From: a virus | Virus genome (UHGV): UHGV-1530050 | Length of the DNA: 30,949 nt | Direction: 5' to 3' (one strand) | Part shown: one piece after another, positions 9,889 to 29,394 of the stretch | Numbering within the stretch: position 1 is the first letter of the stretch | How the letters are laid out: the number at the start of each line of letters is the position of its first letter | Translations under genes and position numbers: made by a program | Notes under the pieces: generated by a model | What the model was told of the DNA's origin: nothing | Seen by the model: the letters and a program-made list of their open reading frames with translations, nothing else | The model's database searches: none

Positions 9889-10236
9889 TTAACTCAGTGA
9901 AACTGTGGTTGAAACTGACGCACCGGTATCGGTACGCATCCCGGTAATATCGACATACATTTCGCCAGCGTCGCCGGTCTCAAAGCTGATGGCGGTAAGC
10001 CTGATGCGCGGCTCCCACTTCTGGATAGCCGAATAGCACGCCACCATAATTTGTAGCCTGAGCGCCGGGTTTTGCGGCATATCAATCAGCGCCGACAGAA
10101 GCGAGCCATATTCACGGCGCATCACCCGCGAGCCGACCGGCGTCAGCAGTATGTCGCGCATGCTCTGGCTGATGTGCTCAGTGTCGCTGATGCCGAGGCC
10201 GGTATTTCGGTTCATACCCTGATAGCGCGCCGTCAT
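9889..10236 (-). CDS. W: Baseplate wedge protein W (gp25-like)
   Basis: 115 aa; located between V and J. Confidence 0.9.
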   Translation of the reverse strand: MTARYQGMNRNTGLGISDTEHISQSMRDILLTPVGSRVMRREYGSLLSALIDMPQNPALRLQIMVACYSAIQKWEPRIRLTAISFETGDAGEMYVDITGMRTDTGASVSTTVSLS

Positions 10237-10874
10237 TTAGTGCCCTCCGTCCAGCTCCCGCCCCGTTGCACGCCACCGTGACCGTGGTCATCAACCTGCA
10301 CACCGTTTGATTTCAACGTGCCGCCAGTATGTTCGATGTTTCCCCGCATGGTGCCGCCTTTCTGCACCTCAAGCGTCGCCGTCGTCAGTTTGTTGGTGCA
10401 GACCACCTCCGGGCTGTCGAGGGTGATGCGGGTTTCTGCTTTCACAAGCACCACCGGCACAGTGGCGGTGATGGACTCCGATGCCGTCACATCAGCAGTC
10501 TTAATGCCACTGACCGTCAGCGCACCGGTTTCCGGCTCATACTCCATAACCGCGCCATCAGGGAACACCACATGCCACGCATCCGCCGAGGCAGACGGGG
10601 CGGGGTTATCGTCTGAGAAAATCCCCGGCAGCACGAAAGCGGTATCAAGCTCGCCACCAATCGCCAGCAGCAGTACCTGCTCACCGACCGAGGGAGCCCA
10701 CCATGTACGCGAACGACCGGCGCGGGTAGTAAGCCAGTTCAGCCATGTAGTCTGGATCCCGCCGCTTTGTACGCGGCACAGCCCCTGCACGGTATCGACC
10801 TCAGTCACCACACCTGAGCGGATGAGATTGCGAATTGCACGAGCTAGTTCTTGAATGCTGTTTAGTGTGTTCAT
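10233..10874 (-). CDS. V: Baseplate spike/assembly protein V
   Basis: 213 aa; P2 gpV-like; first gene of the V-W-J-I-H-G operon. Confidence 0.9.
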   Translation of the reverse strand: MNTLNSIQELARAIRNLIRSGVVTEVDTVQGLCRVQSGGIQTTWLNWLTTRAGRSRTWWAPSVGEQVLLLAIGGELDTAFVLPGIFSDDNPAPSASADAWHVVFPDGAVMEYEPETGALTVSGIKTADVTASESITATVPVVLVKAETRITLDSPEVVCTNKLTTATLEVQKGGTMRGNIEHTGGTLKSNGVQVDDHGHGGVQRGGSWTEGTK

Positions 10875-11062
10875 GTAGCAAGAATGACGCAGTTAAAGCT
10901 ATGGGGCTACCGAGGGAAAATTGTTCAGCAATGGGACAACAAACATCGAGGTCTAGACCTTAAAAAAACAGCCTTGTTCTAGATCGCCCTTCCAATTACA
11001 CTTGATTTAATCTCGACAGAGATGGAATTCTAAATGGCTAGCTTATAATTCAGGATTGAAAA

Positions 11063-11926
11063 ATGGAAGAATCTAAAAGAATACGCCAATTAAAAGAAAA
11101 CCTCATAAAGGAACTACCTTTCTTTCCAAATGAAAAATCAATACGCACTGAACTAGAAAATCAAAGTTTAAATGGGGTTTTAATCGCTTACCTCCACTGG
11201 AAAACAAGAATTGTGCCGACCCGCAGAAGGAGAGTTCATATATATCCAGAGGTAACGAGCGATAAAAGATGGAAAGAACTAAAACTTGGTATTCATGGGT
11301 TACTGGATAAGGTCAGAAAAGGTGAAGACTTATACCCTCATCTTTCATTGCGCGCACATAAGTATGGCTACACTCCTGTTGAAAGAATTCGTAATGGAGA
11401 TGCTGATTCATGGGAAGACAAAGATCAGTTATTAAATACGAAAGGTTTTCATCATTTTCATTTGAGCATGAATATTCAAAGTACAGGCTTGGCCGAAAGG
11501 ACAAATAATGTTCTTTTTGCCTTCGTTTCTCGCGACCAGTTTCGTGCTGTGGGGATATTTGATCATAGTGTATTTGATAAACCCGATAGTTTAAATGGCA
11601 TGACTGAGGAACGTGAAAGAATGTGGACCCTGCATGAAAAATACATCACATTCGGAATGAAAGCTGGCACAGTGTATATAAACAATCTGATAACAGCATC
11701 CGGGCATCCTGTAAATCTTATCATGCTCGCCGATCGTTATGCTGCAATCATCCGAGAATATGACCAGAAGGCGGAAGACAGAATTTTTGTAAATGAGCTT
11801 TATGCTCAAAGCCCACTTCCCTCTCCAGAAAGGTTTAAATTTGAGTGGCGCATAGAGGGTTTGGATCTTGTTCTTTTTGATAAAAAAAACAGAGTGGCCT
11901 TTAACGTCTACAAAGCTCACATTTAA
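11063..11926 (+). CDS. Hypothetical protein; AT-rich cargo gene in the S-V (P2 orf30) slot, antisense to the late genes
   Basis: 287 aa ORF with AGGA RBS 7 nt upstream; markedly lower GC than the flanking S and V genes; no motif I recognise. Confidence 0.6.
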   Translation: MEESKRIRQLKENLIKELPFFPNEKSIRTELENQSLNGVLIAYLHWKTRIVPTRRRRVHIYPEVTSDKRWKELKLGIHGLLDKVRKGEDLYPHLSLRAHKYGYTPVERIRNGDADSWEDKDQLLNTKGFHHFHLSMNIQSTGLAERTNNVLFAFVSRDQFRAVGIFDHSVFDKPDSLNGMTEERERMWTLHEKYITFGMKAGTVYINNLITASGHPVNLIMLADRYAAIIREYDQKAEDRIFVNELYAQSPLPSPERFKFEWRIEGLDLVLFDKKNRVAFNVYKAHI

Positions 11927-11982
11927 GCATGTGAATATATTTTTCTCTGTTGCTATTAAATTAGCAGCAGAGAATTAATCAA

Positions 11983-12435
11983 TTATCTTAGGAAAAGATA
12001 CTGTAAGACCACTTCCTCCATCAATGTCACTTCATCTTGGTTAAATCCGAGCAACGGGCGCGCCTCGTACTGCACATCGCGGCTGTTGCGGTTTGGCCGG
12101 TCTTTGAGGCCATACTGATGCACCCGCGCCATGCGTTGCACCCTGCCGGTAAACTCCACCACAGCCGAACTGTCGCTGCCTTTGGCTTTCATAAAACGAC
12201 TGGTGCGCAGTCTGGTGAACATCTCGCGCTTAATGCGGCCTTTCTTGCTCCGCACAGGCTGGCGCTTTCGCGCGGCATACGGGGTGCCGTCGGGTGCCTG
12301 CTGCCGCTTAATTCGCTGTTGCTGGCTGGCGCGCAGCTTTTTCGCAATCTCAGCCGCCATTTGACGACGCGCCGCCGGTGACAGGCTGGCAATCAGACCG
12401 GCAAGGCGCTCCTGCAGCACGGTTAACTCACTCAT
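11983..12435 (-). CDS. S: Tail completion protein S
   Basis: 150 aa; P2 gpS-like; overlaps the R stop. Confidence 0.85.
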   Translation of the reverse strand: MSELTVLQERLAGLIASLSPAARRQMAAEIAKKLRASQQQRIKRQQAPDGTPYAARKRQPVRSKKGRIKREMFTRLRTSRFMKAKGSDSSAVVEFTGRVQRMARVHQYGLKDRPNRNSRDVQYEARPLLGFNQDEVTLMEEVVLQYLFLR

Positions 12436-12895
12436 CCCACTTACTCACCAGCTCACCGTTAACGTACAGCTCGACCGGGCGCGTCACCGGCTCAGGCAGC
12501 GACGGTTCCGGCGCATAGCTGACGTGCAGTGCGCCGTCGACCTCTTTGACGAGCGTGCGCTCGGTGAGTCTCAGGCTGATACTGATATCGAGCGAATCGT
12601 CGTTATTGATATCAATCATCCAGGTGAATCCTTTCTCCCGCCCGTCGTCGGTGGTCATAATGTCCGGCTGATGTTCACGCAGCCACGCCTGCACCGGCAC
12701 GAATATCAAATCGAGGTCGCCGGTGAAGTCAGTCACCACCACGTTAAGCACGTACACTTTTTCAAACGACAGCGAGCTCGCCAGTCGGGAATCCGTATGC
12801 CCGTTATCAGCGAACAGGCGCAGCATATCGGGATTATTTCGGAGCTGCGGCACGGCGTTAATCAGCGCTTTGCGCAGGCTTTTGTGCTTCTGCAT
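12428..12895 (-). CDS. R: Tail completion protein R
   Basis: Start placed at the internal ATG (MQKHKSLRKAL...) preceded by an AGGA RBS; the ORF track extends to 12940. Confidence 0.75.
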   Translation of the reverse strand: MQKHKSLRKALINAVPQLRNNPDMLRLFADNGHTDSRLASSLSFEKVYVLNVVVTDFTGDLDLIFVPVQAWLREHQPDIMTTDDGREKGFTWMIDINNDDSLDISISLRLTERTLVKEVDGALHVSYAPEPSLPEPVTRPVELYVNGELVSKWDE

Positions 12896-13154
12896 CGAGT
12901 TCATCCTGACAGTGTTTGACGGTTTTGACCTGCAGCGCACAGGCAGTCAGCGCGCCCTCAAGACGGCGAATATCCGCGCTCAGGTCACCATTTGTTTTCG
13001 GGTCACTTCCCGGCATCGGGCAAAGGCTCACCTTCGGGCATCCGTTGACCACAATCACCGGCGCTGGCGCTGGCGCAGGCGGGGCGGGTGTGCAGCCGAC
13101 GCACAACATCAGGCAGAGCAGCGTTATACCACCGGCGAAAGGCTTCATTTTCAT
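12858..13154 (-). CDS. lysC: Outer-membrane spanin lipoprotein (LysC/Rz1-like o-spanin)
   Basis: 98 aa; signal peptide with lipobox-like LCVGC followed by a proline-rich PAPPAPAPAP stretch; overlaps the 3' part of the i-spanin gene in another frame. Confidence 0.6.
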   Translation of the reverse strand: MKMKPFAGGITLLCLMLCVGCTPAPPAPAPAPVIVVNGCPKVSLCPMPGSDPKTNGDLSADIRRLEGALTACALQVKTVKHCQDELDAEAQKPAQSAD

Positions 13155-17921: not shown

Positions 17922-19691
17922 ATGACCATTTCCACCGATACAACCTTGTTGCATGACCCGCGACGACAGGCATCGCTGCTTTACTGGCAGGGCTTTTCCG
18001 TGCCACAGATTGCCGAAATGCTGCAGGTCAAGCGCCCGACCGTGCAGAGCTGGAAGCAGCGCGACGGCTGGGACGGCATCGCACCGATTTCCCGCGTTGA
18101 AAGCAGCCTTGAGGCGCGCCTGATTCAGCTCATCGCGAAACCACAGAAGACGGGCGGTGATTTCAAAGAGATTGACCTGCTCGGGCGGCAGATTGAGCGG
18201 CTGGCGCGCGTCAACCGCTACAGCCAGACCGGCAACGAAGCCGACCTTAACCCCAACGTCGCCAACCGCAACAAAGGGGAGCGCAAAAAGCCGAAAAAGA
18301 ATTTTTTCAGCGACGAGGCTATCGAGAAACTGGAGGAATTATTTTTCGACCAGTCTTTCGAGTACCAGTTGCAGTGGTACCGCGCAGGACTGGAGCACCG
18401 TATTCGTGACATTCTCAAATCCCGCCAGATTGGTGCGACGTTCTATTTCTCCCGCGAGGCGCTGCTGCGCGTGCTCAAAACAGGCCATAACCAGATATTT
18501 TTATCAGCCAGTAAAACGCAGGCTTACGTGTTTCGCGAATACATCATCCAGTTTGCACGACTGGTCGACGTTGACTTGACCGGCGACCCGATTGTCATCG
18601 GTAACAACGGCGCAAAACTGATTTTTCTCGGTACCAATTCCAACACCGCGCAGAGCCATAACGGCGACCTGTATGTCGATGAAATATTCTGGATCCCGAA
18701 CTTTCAGAAACTGCGCAAAGTCGCCTCGGGCATGGCTTCGCAGAAGCACCTGCGCTCGACCTACTTTTCGACACCCTCAACACTGGCGCACGGGGCTTAC
18801 CCCTTCTGGTCTGGTGAGCTGTTCAACAAGGGGCGCGCCAGTGCCGCTGACCGCATCGAAATCGACATCAGTCACCGCGCGCTCGCCGGTGGTCAGCTCT
18901 GCGACGATGGCCAGTGGCGGCAGATTGTCACCATTGAGGATGCCCTTGCCGGGGGCTGCACCCTGTTCGACCTCGACCAGCTCAAACGCGAAAACAGTGA
19001 TGAGGATTTTAAGAACCTGTTTATGTGCGAGTTTGTCGACGATAAAGCGTCGGTATTCCCGTTCGAGGAGCTGCAGCGCTGCATGGTCGACGTGATGGAA
19101 GAATGGGAGGACTTTGCCCCGTTCGCCGACCATCCGTTCGGCTCGCGCCCGGTCTGGATTGGCTACGACCCGTCACACACCGGCGACAGCGCCGGGTGCG
19201 TTGTGCTCGCGCCGCCGGTGGTCTCGGGTGGCAAGTTCCGCATGCTTGAGCGCCACCAGTGGAAAGGAATGGATTTTGCCGCTCAGGCCGAGGGCATCCG
19301 CAAGCTGACCGAGAAATACAACGTCGAATACATCGGCATTGACGCGACCGGCCTCGGTCTCGGCGTATTCCAGTTGGTGCGCTCATTCTACCCGGCGGCA
19401 CGCGGCATCCGTTACACACCTGAAATGAAAACCGCGATGGTACTCAAGGCGAAAGACACCATTCGCCGCGGCTGTCTGGAGTACGACGCCGGGGCGACCG
19501 ACGTCACGCAGTCGTTTATGTCCATCCGCAAAACCATGACCAGCAGCGGGCGCAGCGCCACTTACGAGGCCAGCCGCACCGAGGAAGCCAGTCACGCTGA
19601 TATCGCATGGGCGACCATGCACGCCCTGTTAAACGAACCGCTTTCTGCCGGTAGCGGCATGCAGCCTAAATCTATTCTGGAGTTCAACTAA
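17922..19691 (+). CDS. P: Terminase ATPase (large) subunit P
   Basis: 589 aa; P2 gpP-like; TAATG overlap with Q. Confidence 0.9.
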   Translation: MTISTDTTLLHDPRRQASLLYWQGFSVPQIAEMLQVKRPTVQSWKQRDGWDGIAPISRVESSLEARLIQLIAKPQKTGGDFKEIDLLGRQIERLARVNRYSQTGNEADLNPNVANRNKGERKKPKKNFFSDEAIEKLEELFFDQSFEYQLQWYRAGLEHRIRDILKSRQIGATFYFSREALLRVLKTGHNQIFLSASKTQAYVFREYIIQFARLVDVDLTGDPIVIGNNGAKLIFLGTNSNTAQSHNGDLYVDEIFWIPNFQKLRKVASGMASQKHLRSTYFSTPSTLAHGAYPFWSGELFNKGRASAADRIEIDISHRALAGGQLCDDGQWRQIVTIEDALAGGCTLFDLDQLKRENSDEDFKNLFMCEFVDDKASVFPFEELQRCMVDVMEEWEDFAPFADHPFGSRPVWIGYDPSHTGDSAGCVVLAPPVVSGGKFRMLERHQWKGMDFAAQAEGIRKLTEKYNVEYIGIDATGLGLGVFQLVRSFYPAARGIRYTPEMKTAMVLKAKDTIRRGCLEYDAGATDVTQSFMSIRKTMTSSGRSATYEASRTEEASHADIAWATMHALLNEPLSAGSGMQPKSILEFN

Positions 19692-20737
19692 TGGGTAAGC
19701 AAAAATCCCGCAAAGCCGCTGCGCAGAAGGCCAGCAAGCCACAACAACTGACCGCCAGCGCACCGCCAAAAACAACAGCTTTTACCTTCGGCGAGCCGGT
19801 GCCAGTGCTCGATAAGCGCGATATTCTGGATTACGTCGAGTGCATCAGTAACGGCAAATGGTACGAGCCGCCGGTCAGCTTCTCCGGGCTGGCAAAGAGC
19901 CTGCGCTCTGCAGTGCATCACAGCTCACCGATTTACGTTAAACGCAACGTGCTCGCTAGCACCTACATTCCGCACCCGCTGCTGTCCCGTCAGGATTTCA
20001 GCCGCTTTGCGCTCGACTATCTGGTATTTGGCAACGCCTTTCTTGAGCAGCGCCACAGCGTCACCGGCCAGTTAATCAAACTGCTGGCCTCGCCAGCCAA
20101 ATACACCCGACGCGGAGTCGACGATTCGATTTTCTGGTTTGTGGAAAACTTCACCCAGCCGCACGAGTTCGCGCCTGATACCGTGTTTCACCTGCTGGAG
20201 CCCGACATTAATCAGGAGATTTACGGCCTGCCCGAATATCTCAGCGCGCTAAATTCCGCCTGGCTGAATGAATCCGCGACGCTGTTCCGCCGCAAGTATT
20301 ATCAGAACGGCGCGCACGCGGGTTACATCATGTATGTGACTGACCCGGCGCAGAGCGCGACCGACGTCGAATCGCTGCGCGAGGCGATGCGCAACTCAAA
20401 AGGGCTCGGCAACTTTAAGAACCTGTTTTTCTACGCTCCCGGCGGAAAACCGGACGGCATCAAAATCGTGCCACTGAGCGAGGTCGCCACAAAGGATGAC
20501 TTTTTCAACATCAAGAAGGCCAGTGCCGCCGATCTGATGGACGCGCACCGCGTACCGTTCCAGCTCATGGGCGGCAAGCCCGAGAATATCGGTTCACTCG
20601 GTGATGTTGAGAAGGTGGCAAAGGTATTTGTGCGCAACGAGCTGTCGCCGCTACAGGACAGGTTCAGGGAGGTAAATGACTGGCTCGGCATGGAGGTCAT
20701 CAGATTCAAAGAGTACACCCTCGACAACCCAGAATAA
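19691..20737 (+). CDS. Q: Portal (capsid vertex) protein Q
   Basis: 348 aa; P2 gpQ-like sequence and position. Confidence 0.9.
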   Translation: MGKQKSRKAAAQKASKPQQLTASAPPKTTAFTFGEPVPVLDKRDILDYVECISNGKWYEPPVSFSGLAKSLRSAVHHSSPIYVKRNVLASTYIPHPLLSRQDFSRFALDYLVFGNAFLEQRHSVTGQLIKLLASPAKYTRRGVDDSIFWFVENFTQPHEFAPDTVFHLLEPDINQEIYGLPEYLSALNSAWLNESATLFRRKYYQNGAHAGYIMYVTDPAQSATDVESLREAMRNSKGLGNFKNLFFYAPGGKPDGIKIVPLSEVATKDDFFNIKKASAADLMDAHRVPFQLMGGKPENIGSLGDVEKVAKVFVRNELSPLQDRFREVNDWLGMEVIRFKEYTLDNPE

Positions 20738-20814: not shown

Positions 20815-21819
20815 ATGGGCGCGGAGATTAATATTTTGGAAACTGATTTTAAAATAACCCTCGAAGGTTTCGCTACTGAGCAAGAAGCAAATAATATCGG
20901 TAATTTCACACTAGAAGCTATCCGAGCTTTAACAAAAAATCTCAATCTTGATATCTCCAAATTAAAATGCGTGATTGTTTCCTATAACTTCAGTGAAGCT
21001 CTTCAAAAGGTAACATCCTCTTACCAACACAAATCCCCTAGTTCATTTACCAATAGCAAACAGGGCGCAGCCGTCGGGCAGTTAGTAACAAAAATTGGCA
21101 ATGATGGGCTATGTGAAGAATATACCCTTGTGCTATCGATTGATTTTTTTGTTGAGCTTTTCAATGATGCTGGCTTCTTAAAACTGAAAGAAGAAGGATA
21201 CCTCGCAGTCATCCATCGCATTCACCATGAATTAGTGCACGTACATGAAAAAAACTTACTAACATGCTTAGCCCAAAACTTTACAGTCAACGAGTATGGT
21301 AGCGCGCTTCTTATCTCAGCCACGCGTGCATGGTCTGAATATCTCGCTAATTACATGTCTTCGGGGTCTGCCCCTCAAGAAACTATCGATTTATTTTTAG
21401 AGAATCTTGACACTGTTGTAAATGAAGTATCTGACGAAATTGAAAAACTCATCTGGGGTTATAAGTACGGTAATATTTCTCTGAATGACATGTATCTCGA
21501 AGTAAAAAAACGTATCAGGCTAATCATCAACTCTTATGCTTATGCGATGGGTTATGTCCATTCTCTAAACATCAATATTAAAGAATACGATCCAAAGCTA
21601 TCCCTTACACTATCCAACTCAAAGATAAGATATCAATTATCAGAATTAGGCATTGCTTTTCAGAATCTTTATGGGAAGTTTAATGACCAGCACATTACAG
21701 GTTTTGGTGATTTTCGGGAGATAACAATAATCATTGATGAAATATTCAAGCAGTTTGGGCTTGTTTTAGAGTGTCCCGATTGGTCTGGCGACGGTGAACT
21801 CTACATACATGTAAATTAG
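20815..21819 (+). CDS. Hypothetical protein with HExxH (HELVH) motif; AT-rich cargo gene between portal Q and cos
   Basis: 334 aa ORF with much lower GC than the backbone; ...VIHRIHHELVHVHEKN... contains a candidate zinc-metallopeptidase HExxH motif; RBS weak. Confidence 0.55.
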   Translation: MGAEINILETDFKITLEGFATEQEANNIGNFTLEAIRALTKNLNLDISKLKCVIVSYNFSEALQKVTSSYQHKSPSSFTNSKQGAAVGQLVTKIGNDGLCEEYTLVLSIDFFVELFNDAGFLKLKEEGYLAVIHRIHHELVHVHEKNLLTCLAQNFTVNEYGSALLISATRAWSEYLANYMSSGSAPQETIDLFLENLDTVVNEVSDEIEKLIWGYKYGNISLNDMYLEVKKRIRLIINSYAYAMGYVHSLNINIKEYDPKLSLTLSNSKIRYQLSELGIAFQNLYGKFNDQHITGFGDFREITIIIDEIFKQFGLVLECPDWSGDGELYIHVN

Positions 21820-22293: not shown

Positions 22294-23235
22294 ATGCAAG
22301 GTGAAGTTGACGAACAGCAACCCAATGAGATTATGTCGGAGTTTGGATACTATCCAGTAGAAGTTAACATTGAGACTGAACAATTTTCTTTGCTTACTTT
22401 ACCTGGTCTCAATGAGAAAGTGGAGCGTGTTAACAATGATAAAAACGTTGTGAAAGGTTGGATATACCCTGGAAACCAAGATGTATATAACCTTAATGGT
22501 GGTATATCCACAATGCCTTATAGTCACCGAGTATTCAGTATGCCCAAAACGCACACACTAAAATTAAAAAATACATCCTCGTTAGAAACTCTCAACTTTA
22601 TTGTGTGGTGCCTTTCTTTTTTCAAGGGAATAAGATTGACAACCACTGACGCTGGTTTTTTAGATGCAACCACTATCAAGCCCACTAAGTTAACCGACTT
22701 TATTCTCGTTGGATGCTCTGAAAAAGAAGTCATAGAACTGGCTCTTAATTATATAAATGGCAAACATAAGGATGCGCACTCCCCCAAAAGAATTGCGGCA
22801 GTGGTGCATGCACTATTCTTATCTCAAAACCCACAATACCTTTCTTTTGAAAAATTCCAGTACCTTTACATGGCACTTGATGGGTGCTTTGCTTTGTCGT
22901 GGGCTGAGCATGACAAGGCTCCTGATAAAAAACCGCCAAATCATTACAAGCGATTAAAGTGGATGTGCAAAATTTATGGGTTATCAATCCCCACATGGGT
23001 GTCAGGTAAAAAAAACATTTCTGGCATCCGCAATGATAATTTTCATGAGGCTATTTTTTTTGGTCAACCGCTTGGTTTCTCAAGTGTTAATAACAGTCAA
23101 TATGGTAACGATATATTGCTGCAAATGCAGGCACTGGTATGTCGCCTATTAGCGGCAATACTGTCGGTTAATGATTGCAGTTATCTCAAATCTTCGGTCA
23201 ACTCACGAGATTACCATTCATTAAAAATAAATTAA
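22294..23235 (+). CDS. Hypothetical protein; AT-rich cargo gene in the cos-proximal Q/A slot (P2 tin/old position)
   Basis: 313 aa ORF with a strong GGAG RBS 8 nt upstream; low GC; convergent with replication gene A as P2 old/tin are. Confidence 0.6.
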   Translation: MQGEVDEQQPNEIMSEFGYYPVEVNIETEQFSLLTLPGLNEKVERVNNDKNVVKGWIYPGNQDVYNLNGGISTMPYSHRVFSMPKTHTLKLKNTSSLETLNFIVWCLSFFKGIRLTTTDAGFLDATTIKPTKLTDFILVGCSEKEVIELALNYINGKHKDAHSPKRIAAVVHALFLSQNPQYLSFEKFQYLYMALDGCFALSWAEHDKAPDKKPPNHYKRLKWMCKIYGLSIPTWVSGKKNISGIRNDNFHEAIFFGQPLGFSSVNNSQYGNDILLQMQALVCRLLAAILSVNDCSYLKSSVNSRDYHSLKIN

Positions 23236-24248: not shown

Positions 24249-26471
24249 TTACTCATGTATTGGTTTTGATGCTTCAGCCATCGCCGCAACACGATTAAGG
24301 ATTTTCCGAGCTTTAGCCTCATGCGATGGTGCTGCGGAAAATATTTCTCCTTTGGCCGTTCCGCGTAGCCATTTACCATCAAAACAACTTTTACCACCGG
24401 CCATCAGGTGCAGGGCTTCGCCCCGGCTGATATTAATGCCGGTTGTCAGATGTATTTCGTCGATAGTTTTAGCTATAGCTGCGTTTTGCTCATCCGTTCC
24501 GTGGATGAATTTTCGCCGTGCTGCTGGCTTTTGCTTCCTGAGTCGGTTGGTCAATTCTCGTCTTTCACGCCGACTCAGTGGTTTTGTTAAATCCAGTATC
24601 GGTGGATCGCTTTCGCTTCCCGTACAGTTATTGACAGAACTCCGAGGGACGGCTTTGCCGTCCTGAAGGTCAACGGCCAAATCAACAGCACGCTTCGGAA
24701 CAATCTTCCACTGAGTGAGCCGGGTTAAAATCGGACTCCCTGCACCTATGGAGGAATCGTAGACTCCCTTAATACATACCGTTTCCTCACCGTACTGATT
24801 AAGCTCGGTACGCGGTTCATACAGTGTGCGCACCTGTAAATCATCGCGACGGACAAACGGCCCACCCTGAGCATTAACATAACCAGCCCAGTCACCAGCG
24901 TCGGCGGCATCATGGACGGCGGCAAACTCAACGCTCAGTCCGTGCGCGGTTTCGGTATCAGCGAGGCGACGCAACTCACGGTAAACCGTCACCGGCGCAC
25001 CACCGATAAACTGAAACTGACGGATGTGCCAGCGCGCAGCCCATGCTGAAACGGCGGGGGCTGTCTCTTTCAGTAGCTCACCGCTTTCATCATCGGTTTC
25101 ACCATCGAGAGCATAACCGTCGATATTTTTTGAAATGTATTTAGCAACATAGCCGGTTGCGCTGCCTTTCTCCGGGTCAATGGACTCGGCGTGGAAACGT
25201 GCTTTTTTGGATTTATCGCTTTTCAGTTCGTGGCGGTCTTCTTTCCATGCGTATTTACGGACGATGGAGCGAACATATTCAACATCTTCCGGCAGCATGA
25301 ACATCAGCATGTGCCAGTGTGGAGTGCCGTCGTGATGAGGCTCGGCGACACGAATACCGAAAATACGGACATCTTCCCGATGTAGTTTGGCACGGATACG
25401 CGCCCAGATACCGGTTAGATAGTTTTGCGTGTCAGCCGGGCTGGCACCGCTCCATTTGCTGTTACGGTAACCGGCTTTAGTCGTGGCGTGATATTTTGAC
25501 GGCGCGGTTAGAGTGTAAAACTCACCGACATAACCGAGCTCATTACAGATGTTTTCAAACCCACGAATGCGGGTCATGAGCTCACAGCGGCGAATCGCAG
25601 GGTTAGCAACTGAGCCATCATATTTTTCAATCAGGCTGATACGGTTGCCGTCTTCGTCTTCGAGATCCAGACCTTTGAGAAATTCACGAGTGCGGCGCTT
25701 TTGTTCACGCCAGTCAGTCACGCAGTTTTTACTCGCGTAAGTGTTTTTTTTCTTACTGACGTTGCCGACTGCAATTTGCAGGTGTTCGCGCCACGTAGCT
25801 GCAACACGGCGCAAACGACCGCGCCACCACCCATCGTTAAACATTTTGGCGATAGCCGGTGCGATTTCATCCGCACCGACATATTTTTTTTCAACCCGCT
25901 CCCAATGTGGTGGGATAACGTTAAATTGGAGGGAAATAAAGCCAGCACGAATATACCAGGTGTACAGCGTTTTAAGCTCGCCGAATCCGTGGTCATTAAT
26001 GTTGGCAAGTTCACCACGAATGAAATTAGCAATATCAGCGGCCAACAGGTCAACATCAGCGCGCGACATATCCGGGAGACGGTTATATCGGGCGACCATA
26101 TTAACCATGCGTGACGACAGATATTGCATTTGCTGAGTATCAAAATGACTTCCAAAAACAGCGGTTGATACCTTGCTGTTGATACCAGCGCATTCGTATT
26201 TTTTTGCGACCAGTTCAAGACGCGGCAATGCCTTTTTGCAGAAGTTGATTAAAAATGCATTGGCTCGTTGACTACCCTGATTTTGCTCCAGCACCGCAGC
26301 AGTGCGATAAACATCTAACCGCACGCAGTCGGGCTGGAGAGAAAGCACCTTTTTTGCATGCAGCAAAGCCGCGAACATACGGTCGCGGCGATGCTGTTGC
26401 TCATAAGTAAGGTATGGGCTGGAGATTGCCGACCGTGGGACGTTCCACGGATAAGCGAATTGAACAGCCAA
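24249..26471 (-). CDS. A: Replication initiation protein A (rolling-circle endonuclease)
   Basis: 740 aa; P2/186 gpA-like (HHDGTPHWHMLMF region); last gene of the early operon. Confidence 0.9.
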   Translation of the reverse strand: MAVQFAYPWNVPRSAISSPYLTYEQQHRRDRMFAALLHAKKVLSLQPDCVRLDVYRTAAVLEQNQGSQRANAFLINFCKKALPRLELVAKKYECAGINSKVSTAVFGSHFDTQQMQYLSSRMVNMVARYNRLPDMSRADVDLLAADIANFIRGELANINDHGFGELKTLYTWYIRAGFISLQFNVIPPHWERVEKKYVGADEIAPAIAKMFNDGWWRGRLRRVAATWREHLQIAVGNVSKKKNTYASKNCVTDWREQKRRTREFLKGLDLEDEDGNRISLIEKYDGSVANPAIRRCELMTRIRGFENICNELGYVGEFYTLTAPSKYHATTKAGYRNSKWSGASPADTQNYLTGIWARIRAKLHREDVRIFGIRVAEPHHDGTPHWHMLMFMLPEDVEYVRSIVRKYAWKEDRHELKSDKSKKARFHAESIDPEKGSATGYVAKYISKNIDGYALDGETDDESGELLKETAPAVSAWAARWHIRQFQFIGGAPVTVYRELRRLADTETAHGLSVEFAAVHDAADAGDWAGYVNAQGGPFVRRDDLQVRTLYEPRTELNQYGEETVCIKGVYDSSIGAGSPILTRLTQWKIVPKRAVDLAVDLQDGKAVPRSSVNNCTGSESDPPILDLTKPLSRRERRELTNRLRKQKPAARRKFIHGTDEQNAAIAKTIDEIHLTTGINISRGEALHLMAGGKSCFDGKWLRGTAKGEIFSAAPSHEAKARKILNRVAAMAEASKPIHE

Positions 26472-28533: not shown

Positions 28534-29394
28534 ATGAGTTCTGAGCTTGATGTTCAGTGGCGTGTTAGTGCAACGAACGGCGTATTGGAACGCTTAATGT
28601 CAGCCTATGGGGTCAAGATGCAAAAGGATTTGGCTGACCTGCTAGGTATCGCTAAACACAGCGTTAGCGGCTGGGTTCAGCGTGATGCAATACCTGGCAA
28701 TGTCATAGTTAGGTGTTGTCTTGACACGGGAGCTGATATCAATTGGCTTGTAAATGGAGAGCTTGCAAATGCAAATCACGAGCGAGTCAGTTGCAAGTTA
28801 AAAGGCAAAGAGCTTTATGACGAGATTATGACGAATGGTGGTAAAACCGTTTTGCGTAGGATTCTTGATGCGTATGGCTTTACCATGCAAAAGGAGCTCG
28901 GTGATTTGCTCGGCATTTCCTCTGGCACAATTAGCACATGGGTAAGGCGAGATTTTTTCCCTGGTGATGTTGTTGTTACATGCGCTCTTGATACCGATAC
29001 GTCACTGGAATGGTTAGCAACAGGCAAGGGGCAAATGCGAGCTAACAGGGAAGATGTCACATCTGGTTTTTCTATTAAAAAATCTCGTCTTGAATCTGGT
29101 GAGCTTAAGGATGCAGGAACGTGGCATCCTGACCCCTCAATGATTCCTTCTAACTCAGGGGAATTGATTTTTGTTGACGGTGTAGCTGCCTCTTGGCTTG
29201 TCGACTGTTCTGCTTCGAATATAAGTAATGGTCGCTGGTTAATTGATATCGACGGCGCTCTTGATGTTTTTGATGTAATTCGTTTACCTGGTGGAAAAGT
29301 CAGGTTGTCAAATAAGTCTGCTGAGTTTGAATGCAACATTACCGACATTACGCCTGCCGGGGTTGTAGTTTTCACATTGGAAAAACACGTATAA
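28534..29394 (+). CDS. cI: CI-type immunity repressor with tandem-duplicated N-terminal HTH domains
   Basis: 286 aa; residues ~14-75 and ~103-165 are clear paralogous copies (LERLMSAYGVKMQKDLADLLGIAKHSVSGWVQRD... vs LRRILDAYGFTMQKELGDLLGISSGTISTWVRRD...), resembling the 186 CI-type HTH domain; AGGGG RBS. Confidence 0.8.
   Translation: MSSELDVQWRVSATNGVLERLMSAYGVKMQKDLADLLGIAKHSVSGWVQRDAIPGNVIVRCCLDTGADINWLVNGELANANHERVSCKLKGKELYDEIMTNGGKTVLRRILDAYGFTMQKELGDLLGISSGTISTWVRRDFFPGDVVVTCALDTDTSLEWLATGKGQMRANREDVTSGFSIKKSRLESGELKDAGTWHPDPSMIPSNSGELIFVDGVAASWLVDCSASNISNGRWLIDIDGALDVFDVIRLPGGKVRLSNKSAEFECNITDITPAGVVVFTLEKHV

What the first reader, a model, noticed from the sequence alone, without database searches (positions are those of the whole stretch)
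11063..11926. Antisense AT-rich moron in the S-V (orf30) slot of the late region
A 287-aa ORF on the + strand sits between the S and V genes (both - strand), with its own RBS, an upstream AT-rich region and much lower GC than its neighbours. This is the position of P2 orf30, a variable cargo site, but here the gene is transcribed against the late operons, which suggests expression in the lysogen. Function is unknown.
Basis: partly seen in the sequence, partly recalled or inferred. Interest (0 to 1): 0.7.

Follow-up and report, generated by a model that had tools for sequence, protein, structure and literature searches.

The report
RelE-fold defence-like gene in prophage slot
The AT-rich gene between the tail genes S and V of this P2/186-like prophage is a real, conserved single-gene cargo whose core has the fold of RelE-type mRNA-cutting toxins and which belongs to the superfamily of PD-T4-7, a validated E. 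coli abortive-infection anti-phage protein, so it is most likely a prophage-carried defence gene, not a virion part.

The parts
10233..10874 (-). gpV baseplate spike gene, the first gene of the late V operon. It is the left conserved anchor of the slot.
   Evidence: Pfam Phage_spike 1.1e-28 and Phage_base_V 7e-19. Annotated as baseplate assembly protein V in identical E. coli prophages.
10921..10939 (.). TTGT-N11-ACAA dyad, the likely Ogr/B activator-binding site of the late promoter P_V. It shows that the V promoter lies between V and the cargo.
   Evidence: It aligns with the activator-binding site annotated in P2 (NC_001895 10239-10266) and is conserved in the K. aerogenes prophage. Its function is inferred from the P2 annotation.
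10945..11062 (+). AT-rich upstream region of the cargo gene. It holds a TTGATT at 11002-11007, a perfect TATAAT at 11044-11049 and the Shine-Dalgarno AGGA at 11052-11055. The promoter is not pinned down.
   Evidence: Sequence. The region is nearly identical in the K. aerogenes copy and 'CACTTGA' is kept in the E. roggenkampii copy. The strict sigma-70 scan found no site.
11063..11926 (+). Cargo gene: a 287-aa protein of the PD-T4-7 superfamily.
   Evidence: ORF. PADLOC PD-T4-7 E=4.8e-9. 157 homologues. 1,418 representative clusters. hhalign against the PD-T4-7-like clade gives E=5.9e-45 over the full length. AF2 pLDDT 84.1, pTM 0.82.
11063..11212 (+). N-terminal three-helix region (aa 1-50). 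P19, F20, F21, P22, H45, W46 and R49 are invariant within the 287-aa family. It is a candidate autoinhibitory or ribosome-binding module (inferred).
   Evidence: Secondary structure of the model. Conservation.
11225..11578 (+). RelE/ParE-fold (BECR) domain, aa about 55-172. Order: strand 57-60, helix 70-85, insertion 86-128, strands 129-133, 149-155 and 159-167.
11450..11461 (+). H130-H131-F132-H133 motif on strand beta2. Together with D121, R146, R157 and H168 it is the candidate catalytic site.
   Evidence: H131, H133 and D121 are invariant across 82 sequences down to 22% identity, and H168 is kept in at least 90%. The HHxHL motif is also invariant in the PD-T4-7-like clade. Assigning it to catalysis is an inference.
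11600..11923 (+). C-terminal domain (aa about 180-287): three helices and a three-stranded meander. S213-G214-H215-P216 is invariant in the 287-aa family and W262 in the wider set. It is the candidate sensor or regulatory domain.
   Evidence: Model. Conservation. The PD-T4-7 HMMs do not recognise this half directly, but it is collinear with the PD-T4-7-like clade. There are weak Phage_sheath_1 hits in 3 of 82 members.
11943..11974 (+). Hairpin with a 13-bp stem between the convergent cargo gene and gpS. It is a probable transcription terminator, but there is no clean U-tract.
   Evidence: RNA fold -20.1 kcal/mol, z = -4.3 on the + strand, and -14.9 kcal/mol on the - strand. Kept in the K. aerogenes copy with a compensatory change at the stem base, C...G to A...T. 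The consensus terminator scan did not call it.
11983..12435 (-). gpS tail-completion gene, the last gene of the late O operon. It is the right conserved anchor of the slot.
   Evidence: Pfam Phage_tail_S 1.2e-35. P2 annotation places the O-operon terminator just after S.

Best explanation
The gene is an autonomous, horizontally acquired cargo gene in the S-V (orf30) slot of a 186/PSP3-like P2-family prophage. It encodes a divergent member of the PD-T4-7 superfamily. PD-T4-7 is a single-protein, experimentally validated abortive-infection defence of E. coli. The protein has three parts: an N-terminal helical region, a central RelE/ParE-fold toxin domain with an invariant D...HxH...H constellation, and a C-terminal domain. 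Proposed mechanism (inferred): the protein is made in the lysogen from its own promoter, antisense to the silent late operons. Its flanking domains keep the toxin domain inactive in cis, which would explain why no separate antitoxin gene exists. When another phage infects, a phage product or an infection-induced change relieves the inhibition. The RelE-like domain then cleaves mRNA, most likely on the ribosome. Translation stops and the infected cell fails to yield phage, which protects the lysogen population and therefore the prophage. Shown here: the gene is real and under purifying selection, it has a RelE fold, it is homologous to the PD-T4-7 superfamily, it has no conserved partner, and it sits in a variable slot and in other mobile contexts. 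Inferred: expression in the lysogen, RNase activity, autoinhibition, trigger sensing and defence itself.
Against: The direct match to the PD-T4-7 models covers only the N-terminal half, about 47% of the model. I could not obtain the validated E. coli PD-T4-7 protein (RRN43039.1) for a direct comparison. No Pfam RelE-superfamily model matches. hhalign against E. coli YafO is not significant (E=0.085), so the toxin assignment rests on fold. The fold cannot tell RelE-type RNases from ParE-type gyrase poisons. I could not map the conserved His/Arg/Asp residues onto known catalytic positions because no residue-level structural alignment was available. No sigma-70 promoter or canonical terminator was called. 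The mechanism of PD-T4-7 itself is unpublished. Several homologues sit in ordinary chromosomal neighbourhoods with no defence genes nearby.
Confidence: 0.55

Rival explanations
1. The protein does defend against phages, but not as an mRNA interferase. The RelE/ParE-fold domain acts like ParE (a gyrase poison), or it acts without catalysis by binding and blocking a phage or host factor.
Against: The best fold hits are the RNases RelE, YafQ and YoeB. The invariant His-x-His on a beta strand, a further conserved His and several conserved Arg residues resemble the His/Arg/Lys active sites of YafQ, YoeB and RelE (established knowledge of those families). ParE toxins lack such a site. hhalign pairs FHHFHL with the VAHIHL of YafO, but only weakly.
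Confidence: 0.15
2. It is a toxin that serves the prophage rather than a defence against other phages. Examples would be a fused toxin-antitoxin addiction module, or a brake on growth or translation used in the lysis-lysogeny decision.
For: It has a RelE-fold toxin domain. It is carried on mobile elements, namely prophages, integron-like cassette arrays and IS-flanked islands, where addiction modules are common.
Against: A single polypeptide has no separate labile antitoxin, which post-segregational killing normally needs. The closest validated relative, PD-T4-7, protects against phage by abortive infection (PMC9519451). Most related phages, including 186 and PSP3, lack the gene entirely, so it is not part of the phage's own life cycle.
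Confidence: 0.12
3. It is a lysogenic-conversion or host-fitness gene unrelated to phages, and the resemblance to PD-T4-7 reflects only a shared ancient fold.
For: Several homologues are lone genes among housekeeping genes, with no defence or mobile genes nearby: Shewanella, Amphritea, Aeromonas and Pseudovibrio. Other cargos of the same slot, such as the pentapeptide-repeat and UPF0489 proteins, are not known defence genes.
Against: Homology to the PD-T4-7-recognised clade runs over the full length and is highly significant. It is not just a shared fold. Lone islets are also typical of single-gene defence systems.
Confidence: 0.1
4. It is a virion or tail-assembly component, for example an accessory baseplate or tail-completion factor, as its position among the tail genes might suggest.
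For: It lies between gpS and gpV. A few superfamily members give very weak Phage_sheath_1 hits (3 of 82, best E=0.024), which echoes the 'sheath-like' HHpred hint for PD-T4-7.
Against: It is on the opposite strand to the late operons, with its own ribosome-binding site. It is absent from 186, PSP3 and most relatives, whose slot is empty. There is no PHROGs family, no tblastn hit in 50,697 phage genomes and no fold match in BFVD. Homologues occur outside prophages. GC is 39% against 59% for the flanking tail genes.
Confidence: 0.02

Closest known systems
PD-T4-7 (Vassallo et al. 2022, Nat Microbiol; PADLOC PDLC04065/PDLC04066)
   Same: Both are single-gene systems with no partner. The N-terminal half is significantly similar in sequence (E=4.8e-9). 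Full-length collinear homology holds through an intermediate clade (E=5.9e-45). The RelE/YafO-like toxin core lies at the same relative position: PD-T4-7 residues 118-164, here about 115-170. Both are carried on mobile DNA in Enterobacteriaceae.
   Different: This protein is shorter: 287 aa against 352 aa for the validated protein and 333-337 model positions. The PD-T4-7 models do not recognise its C-terminal half directly. It forms a separate, tightly conserved 287-aa subfamily. No phenotype has been measured. I could not establish where the validated PD-T4-7 sits in its genome.
RelE/ParE (BECR-fold) type II toxins: RelE, YafQ, YoeB, HigB, YafO, ParE
   Different: There is no detectable sequence-model match. 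The domain carries an insertion of about 40 residues and is embedded between N- and C-terminal domains. There is no adjacent antitoxin gene. The protein is about three times the size of a monodomain toxin.
CapRel(SJ46) fused toxin-antitoxin defence (Zhang et al. 2022, Nature; PMC9712102)
   Same: The proposed logic is the same. One polypeptide carries a translation-targeting toxin domain and a cis-inhibitory, phage-sensing domain. It is prophage-encoded and defends by abortive infection.
   Different: The toxin is unrelated: CapRel pyrophosphorylates tRNA, whereas a RelE-type RNase is proposed here. Autoinhibition and direct sensing are demonstrated for CapRel and only inferred here.
Cami1 (CRISPR-associated CARF-RelE ribosome-dependent RNase; PDB 8phb)
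   Different: The Cami1 sensor is a CARF domain that binds cyclic oligoadenylate from a type III CRISPR system. No CARF domain and no associated signalling genes are present here.
P2 morons: orf30, old/tin, Z/fun
   Same: It occupies the same slot as P2 orf30, in the same antisense orientation, with low GC, and it is non-essential cargo at an operon boundary. old, tin and fun are phage-exclusion genes at the other two P2 cargo sites.
   Different: It is unrelated in sequence to P2 Orf30 (hhalign E=0.63). Orf30 itself has no known function. The papers I searched on P2 defence hotspots do not mention orf30 or this slot.

Membership tests
PD-T4-7 defence system (PADLOC/DefenseFinder; Vassallo 2022) | Significant match to the PD-T4-7 profile HMMs | tested here: met
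   PDLC04065 E=4.8e-9 (34.2 bits) and PDLC04066 E=1.5e-7. These were the only PADLOC families hit.
PD-T4-7 defence system (PADLOC/DefenseFinder; Vassallo 2022) | Match over the full length of the model and protein (collinear architecture) | tested here: inconclusive
   The direct match covers only aa 23-168 against model positions 16-171 of 333. Indirectly, the family aligns over its full length (281 columns, E=5.9e-45) with a clade whose 27 members all hit PD-T4-7. P0211 from that clade covers model positions 25-302 of 337. I could not retrieve the validated protein RRN43039.1 for a direct alignment.
PD-T4-7 defence system (PADLOC/DefenseFinder; Vassallo 2022) | Single-gene system with no conserved partner gene | tested here: met
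   Twelve contexts were sampled. Neighbours differ in all of them, and the two small upstream ORFs tested are unrelated to each other (BLASTP E=3.5).
PD-T4-7 defence system (PADLOC/DefenseFinder; Vassallo 2022) | Abortive-infection protection against T4-like phage | not testable with these tools
   This needs efficiency-of-plaquing and MOI-dependent growth assays like those in PMC9519451.
RelE/ParE (BECR-fold) toxin superfamily | The RelE/ParE fold, as judged by structural comparison | tested here: met
RelE/ParE (BECR-fold) toxin superfamily | [quoted passage not shown] | tested here: not met
   The protein has no Pfam hit. Among 82 superfamily members only one reaches YafQ_toxin, at E=0.081. 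hhalign against E. coli YafO gives E=0.085 and against YafQ 0.61.
RelE/ParE (BECR-fold) toxin superfamily | Adjacent cognate antitoxin gene (bicistronic type II module) | tested here: not met
   There is no ORF in the 188-nt upstream gap other than short chance frames. The gene downstream is the convergent gpS. No neighbour is conserved elsewhere.
RelE/ParE (BECR-fold) toxin superfamily | Conserved catalytic residues on the beta sheet and C-terminal segment | tested here: inconclusive
   D121, H131 and H133 are invariant and H168 is kept in at least 90% of 82 sequences. H131 and H133 lie on strand 129-133 and H168 follows strand 159-167. No residue-level superposition on known active sites was available.
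RelE/ParE (BECR-fold) toxin superfamily | mRNA cleavage (ribosome-dependent) or gyrase inhibition | not testable with these tools
   This is a biochemical property.
P2-family moron / hotspot cargo | Lies between conserved core genes at a site whose content differs among related phages | tested here: met
   The slot is empty in 186, PSP3 and many E. coli prophages (68-bp gap in L013). Other cargos are P2 Orf30, a pentapeptide-repeat protein, a UPF0489-domain protein, a two-gene cassette and a 347-aa protein with a weak LmuA match.
P2-family moron / hotspot cargo | Base composition unlike the phage backbone | tested here: met
   0.387 GC against 0.58-0.59 in gpV and gpS. The gene is 0.37-0.39 GC in all six hosts examined.
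P2-family moron / hotspot cargo | Own promoter and terminator (an independent transcription unit) | tested here: inconclusive
   The hairpin at 11943-11974 folds at -20.1 kcal/mol (z = -4.3) and shows a compensatory change in K. aerogenes. There is a perfect TATAAT at 11044-11049 but only a poor -35, and the consensus scan found no promoter or terminator.
P2-family moron / hotspot cargo | Expressed from the repressed prophage | not testable with these tools
   This needs RNA-seq or 5'-RACE on the lysogen.

The most novel reading that the evidence does not exclude
The S-V (orf30) slot is a third true anti-phage hotspot of P2-family phages, one that the recent hotspot surveys I searched do not describe. 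On this reading, the 287-aa family is a self-contained immune sensor and effector. Its RelE-type mRNase is held off in cis and is switched on when its C-terminal domain binds a structural protein of the invading phage directly. The faint sheath-like similarity hints at a tail protein. That would make it a RelE-based counterpart of CapRel, with a large unannotated superfamily behind it (1,418 representative clusters).
Probability: 0.3. Interest if true: 0.6.

Novelty: new member of a known kind. Interest (0 to 1): 0.4.

Why it matters
First, it gives a testable function and mechanism to a widespread family that carries only 'hypothetical protein' or no name in every source seen, and has no Pfam, NCBIfam or PHROGs model. 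Second, the confident RelE-fold model supplies structure-level support for the PD-T4-7 superfamily, where the original paper had only a 51%-probability HHpred hint, and it names specific residues to mutate (H131, H133, D121, H168). Third, it suggests that the old 'orf30' slot of P2-like phages is another place to look for defence genes. At least five other unrelated, uncharacterised cargos sit in the same slot, nearly all antisense to the late genes. The slot is not mentioned in the passages I searched in three P2 hotspot papers (Rousset 2022, Vassallo 2022, iLund4u 2024).

Tried and rejected
Pfam, PHROGs and NCBIfam scans of the protein found nothing. tblastn against 50,697 phage genomes found no match. 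An HMM search of all PDB sequences returned only chance hits. Foldseek against BFVD viral structures found nothing at E<=0.001. The afdb50 library was unavailable.

A YafO link at sequence level is not significant. hhalign gives E=0.43 with the narrow profile and 0.085 with the broad one. It does align FHHFHL with YafO's VAHIHL, so I kept it only as a hint. YafQ gives nothing. A Pfam scan of 82 superfamily members gave only sub-threshold noise.

I tested for a conserved upstream partner or antitoxin and rejected it. The small ORFs upstream in Shewanella and Amphritea are unrelated, and the window has none. I tested homology to P2 Orf30 and rejected it. The UPF0489 cargo is also unrelated to P2 Orf30, despite having the same length.

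An attempt to reach the validated E. coli PD-T4-7 sequence through the bridging protein P0211 returned only environmental and alphaproteobacterial relatives. The consensus promoter and terminator scan found nothing in 10700-12200. My reading of the upstream region by eye gave only a perfect -10 with a poor -35, placed so close to the ATG that it would exclude the Shine-Dalgarno, so I left the promoter unassigned.

Full report
**1. The observation**

The window holds an ORF at 11063-11926 on the + strand (287 aa, ATG to TAA). On its left is 10233-10874 (-), which matches Pfam Phage_base_V and Phage_spike and is therefore gpV. On its right is 11983-12435 (-), which matches Phage_tail_S and is gpS. 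gpR follows at 12428-12940. GC falls from about 0.60 to 0.35-0.42 across about 10850-12050. The gene is 0.387 GC (GC3 0.333), against 0.593 for gpV and 0.581 for gpS. AGGA lies 7 nt before the ATG.

**2. It is a real gene**

A search of 5.8 billion proteins found 157 homologues. Nearly all are 287 aa and 52-88% identical to the query. They come from Gamma- and Betaproteobacteria: Klebsiella, Serratia, Enterobacter, Shewanella, Vibrio, Pseudoalteromonas, Aeromonas, Gallionella and Comamonas. Every one that has a name is called 'hypothetical', and none has a Pfam domain. A profile search of 1.84 billion cluster representatives found 1,418 at E<=0.001 and 495 at E<=1e-10. Against the K. aerogenes copy, dN/dS is 0.126 at dS 0.46. 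The gene stays at 0.37-0.39 GC in six very different hosts.

**3. The slot**

The prophage belongs to the 186/PSP3 branch of the P2 family. Its flanks are 90-95% identical to PSP3 and 186, and in those phages the S-V gap is empty. An E. coli prophage with an empty slot has only 68 bp between V and S.

Of 5,426 complete E. coli genomes, 70 matched part of the query region and 7 carry this exact insert at 99.7-99.8% identity. Other prophages carry different genes at the same place:
- a pentapeptide-repeat protein, also called YjcF;
- a 261-aa protein with a UPF0489 domain;
- a two-gene cassette of 170 and 140 aa;
- P2's own Orf30;
- in a Klebsiella phage, a 347-aa protein with a weak match to LmuA.

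None of those tested is related to the present protein or to P2 Orf30.

Homologues of the present gene at 88% identity (K. aerogenes) and 63% identity (E. roggenkampii) occupy the same slot in the same orientation.

P2's annotation explains why the slot tolerates cargo. S ends the O operon and is followed by a terminator. V starts the V operon and is preceded by an activator-binding site. That dyad, TTGT-N11-ACAA, is conserved at window 10921-10939. The cargo therefore lies between two late transcription units without interrupting either.

P2 orf30 is itself antisense to S and V, and so is every other cargo found in the E. coli prophages examined. Orientation against the late genes is thus the rule for this slot. 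It is not a peculiarity of this gene, as the finding implied.

The literature has long listed orf30 as one of three regions of horizontally acquired genes in P2-like phages (PMC3091744). In the papers I searched on P2 defence hotspots, Rousset 2022 never mentions orf30. The Vassallo 2022 and iLund4u 2024 passages describe the old/tin and Z/fun loci, and iLund4u adds a tail-to-cI locus, but none describes this slot.

**4. What the protein is**

Pfam, PHROGs and NCBIfam give nothing. PADLOC gives one family, PD-T4-7, with E=4.8e-9 and 1.5e-7 over residues 23-168.

PD-T4-7 came from the Laub laboratory's functional selection. It is a single 352-aa E. coli protein that protects against T4 by abortive infection when expressed from its native promoter. 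It was labelled 'RelE toxin-like' on the strength of an HHpred match to YafO_toxin with only 51% probability, at residues 118-164. It also showed faint sheath-like similarity further along (PMC9519451).

The direct HMM match here covers only half of the protein, so I looked for intermediates. Superfamily members of 300-320 aa hit the PD-T4-7 models at 1e-11 to 2e-24. One of them, P0211, hits both the PD-T4-7 models and the profile of this family over its full length. All 27 members of an alignment built around P0211 hit PD-T4-7. Profile-profile comparison of that alignment with this family gives 100% probability, E=5.9e-45, over 281 columns, that is, end to end. The gene therefore belongs to the PD-T4-7 superfamily as a distinct, compact, tightly conserved subfamily.

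**5. Structure**

Both halves of the protein have a helix-helix-strand-strand-strand order, so I modelled residues 50-180 alone (pLDDT 79.4) and searched again. The hits were cleaner and stronger:

Across 82 sequences down to 22% identity, D121, H131, H133 and W262 never vary. P19, P22, W46, R49, R56, G87, L94, S95, G102, D119, L124, H168, F171 and G214 are kept in at least 90%. H131 and H133 sit on the first strand of the sheet, and H168 follows the last strand. RelE-type RNases place their catalytic Lys/Arg/His/Tyr residues in this region (established knowledge of RelE, YafQ and YoeB).

At sequence level the YafO link stays non-significant (E=0.085), and no Pfam toxin model matches any member convincingly. 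The viral structure library gave no match.

**6. Context across bacteria**

I sampled twelve contexts:
- three P2-family prophages, at the same slot;
- a Mu-like prophage in Pseudoalteromonas, again antisense to its neighbours;
- two Vibrio vulnificus arrays of short same-strand cassettes that look like a superintegron, alongside Phd/ParE, DarT-NADAR, HEPN and DUF4435 genes;
- two IS-rich islands, one beside an AAA_13 ATPase and one beside Fic and a group II intron reverse transcriptase;
- four lone islets among housekeeping genes.

No neighbour recurs. The two small upstream ORFs I tested are unrelated to each other. The gene behaves as a self-sufficient mobile unit.

**7. Transcription signals**

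A hairpin with a 13-bp stem at 11943-11974 separates the convergent cargo gene and gpS. It folds at -20.1 kcal/mol on the + strand (z = -4.3). The K. aerogenes copy keeps it, with a compensatory change at the base of the stem.

Upstream there is a perfect TATAAT at 11044-11049 and a TTGATT at 11002-11007, both conserved in K. aerogenes. Their spacing does not make a canonical promoter, and the strict scan called none. Expression in the lysogen is therefore plausible but unproven.

**8. Most likely mechanism**

I commit to a prophage-encoded, single-protein abortive-infection system. The RelE-fold domain is the effector, most likely a ribosome-dependent mRNA endonuclease. The flanking domains keep it off in cis and respond to infection, as shown for the unrelated fused toxin-antitoxin CapRel (PMC9712102).

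I rate membership of the PD-T4-7 superfamily at about 0.95, the RelE/ParE fold at about 0.9, an anti-phage role at about 0.6 and RNase chemistry at about 0.5. The whole chain comes to about 0.55.

The rivals, each scored in the structured fields, are:
- ParE-like or non-catalytic action;
- a toxin that serves the prophage itself;
- a host-fitness gene unrelated to phages;
- a virion component (very unlikely).

**9. Novelty**

The kind is known: PD-T4-7, and defence morons in P2-family prophages. Three things are new. This subfamily has not been annotated. The confident fold assignment firms up what was a weak hint for the whole superfamily. And the location suggests the orf30 slot is a further defence hotspot. 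This is a solid, useful annotation but not a surprise, so I score interest at 0.4.

Noticed in passing
window 20815-21819 (+) and 22294-23235 (+): Two ORFs of 334 and 313 aa occupy the classic P2 hotspot between the portal gene (19691-20737) and the replication gene A (24249-26471, -). That is the old/tin position. Neither has any Pfam or PADLOC hit, so both are candidate unknown defence cargo.
   Followed up: partly
L023:504-1438 (E. coli EC6622) and L022:446-1231 (E. coli A38): Other cargos in the same S-V slot, both antisense. One is a two-gene cassette of 170 and 140 aa whose ORFs overlap by one base, a layout like a toxin-antitoxin pair, with no Pfam hits. The other is a 261-aa protein with a UPF0489 domain (E=7e-8). 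It is unrelated to P2 Orf30 although the two are the same length.
   Followed up: partly
L015:1285-2328 (Klebsiella phage ST147-VIM1phi7.1): In this phage the S-V slot holds a 347-aa hypothetical protein on the same strand as the late genes. It is the only sense-oriented cargo I saw. It has a weak PADLOC match to the Lamassu effector LmuA (E=2e-6).
   Followed up: no
L014:1813-2649 and L017:992-1828: A 278-aa pentapeptide-repeat protein, annotated YjcF, is a recurrent cargo of this slot in E. coli P2-like prophages. It appears in at least 5 of the 60 genomes listed. Its role in a prophage is unexplained.
   Followed up: no
L019:1-14415 and L020:1-8395 (Vibrio vulnificus): The Vibrio homologue sits in long arrays of short, same-strand genes that look like superintegron cassettes. 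They lie next to Phd/ParE, DarT-NADAR, HEPN_Cthe2314 and AAA_21+DUF4435 genes. I did not search for attC sites.
   Followed up: no
L021:7001-7864 (Pseudoalteromonas luteoviolacea): A 57%-identical homologue lies inside a Mu-like prophage (Mu transposase, CI-like repressor, Mu Gp36, Phage_tail_S). It is again on the strand opposite its neighbours.
   Followed up: no
window 28534-29394 (+): The CI-repressor ORF as listed is 286 aa. It has two stretches matching Phage_CI_repr and extra N-terminal HTH hits. Either the ORF call over-extends upstream of the true start, or the DNA-binding domain is duplicated.
   Followed up: no
window 11063-11926 and homologues in L002, L004, L007, L010, L021: The gene stays at 37-39% GC (GC3 30-34%) in every host examined. 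Its prophage flanks in E. coli and in the two other enterobacterial hosts are 58-60% GC. So it has not drifted toward the local composition, which suggests either frequent transfer or selection for AT-richness.
   Followed up: partly
A2 members; protein residues about 190-240: Three of 82 superfamily members give sub-threshold Phage_sheath_1 hits (best E=0.024). This echoes the 'phage-sheath-like' HHpred hint reported for PD-T4-7 residues 193-241. It is too weak to interpret, but it lies in the putative sensor half.
   Followed up: no
L001:28500-29720 (E. coli ET490): In strain ET490 the otherwise near-identical prophage carries an ISKox3 (ISL3-family) transposase next to the replication gene. 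The prophage lies directly downstream of rplS.
   Followed up: no
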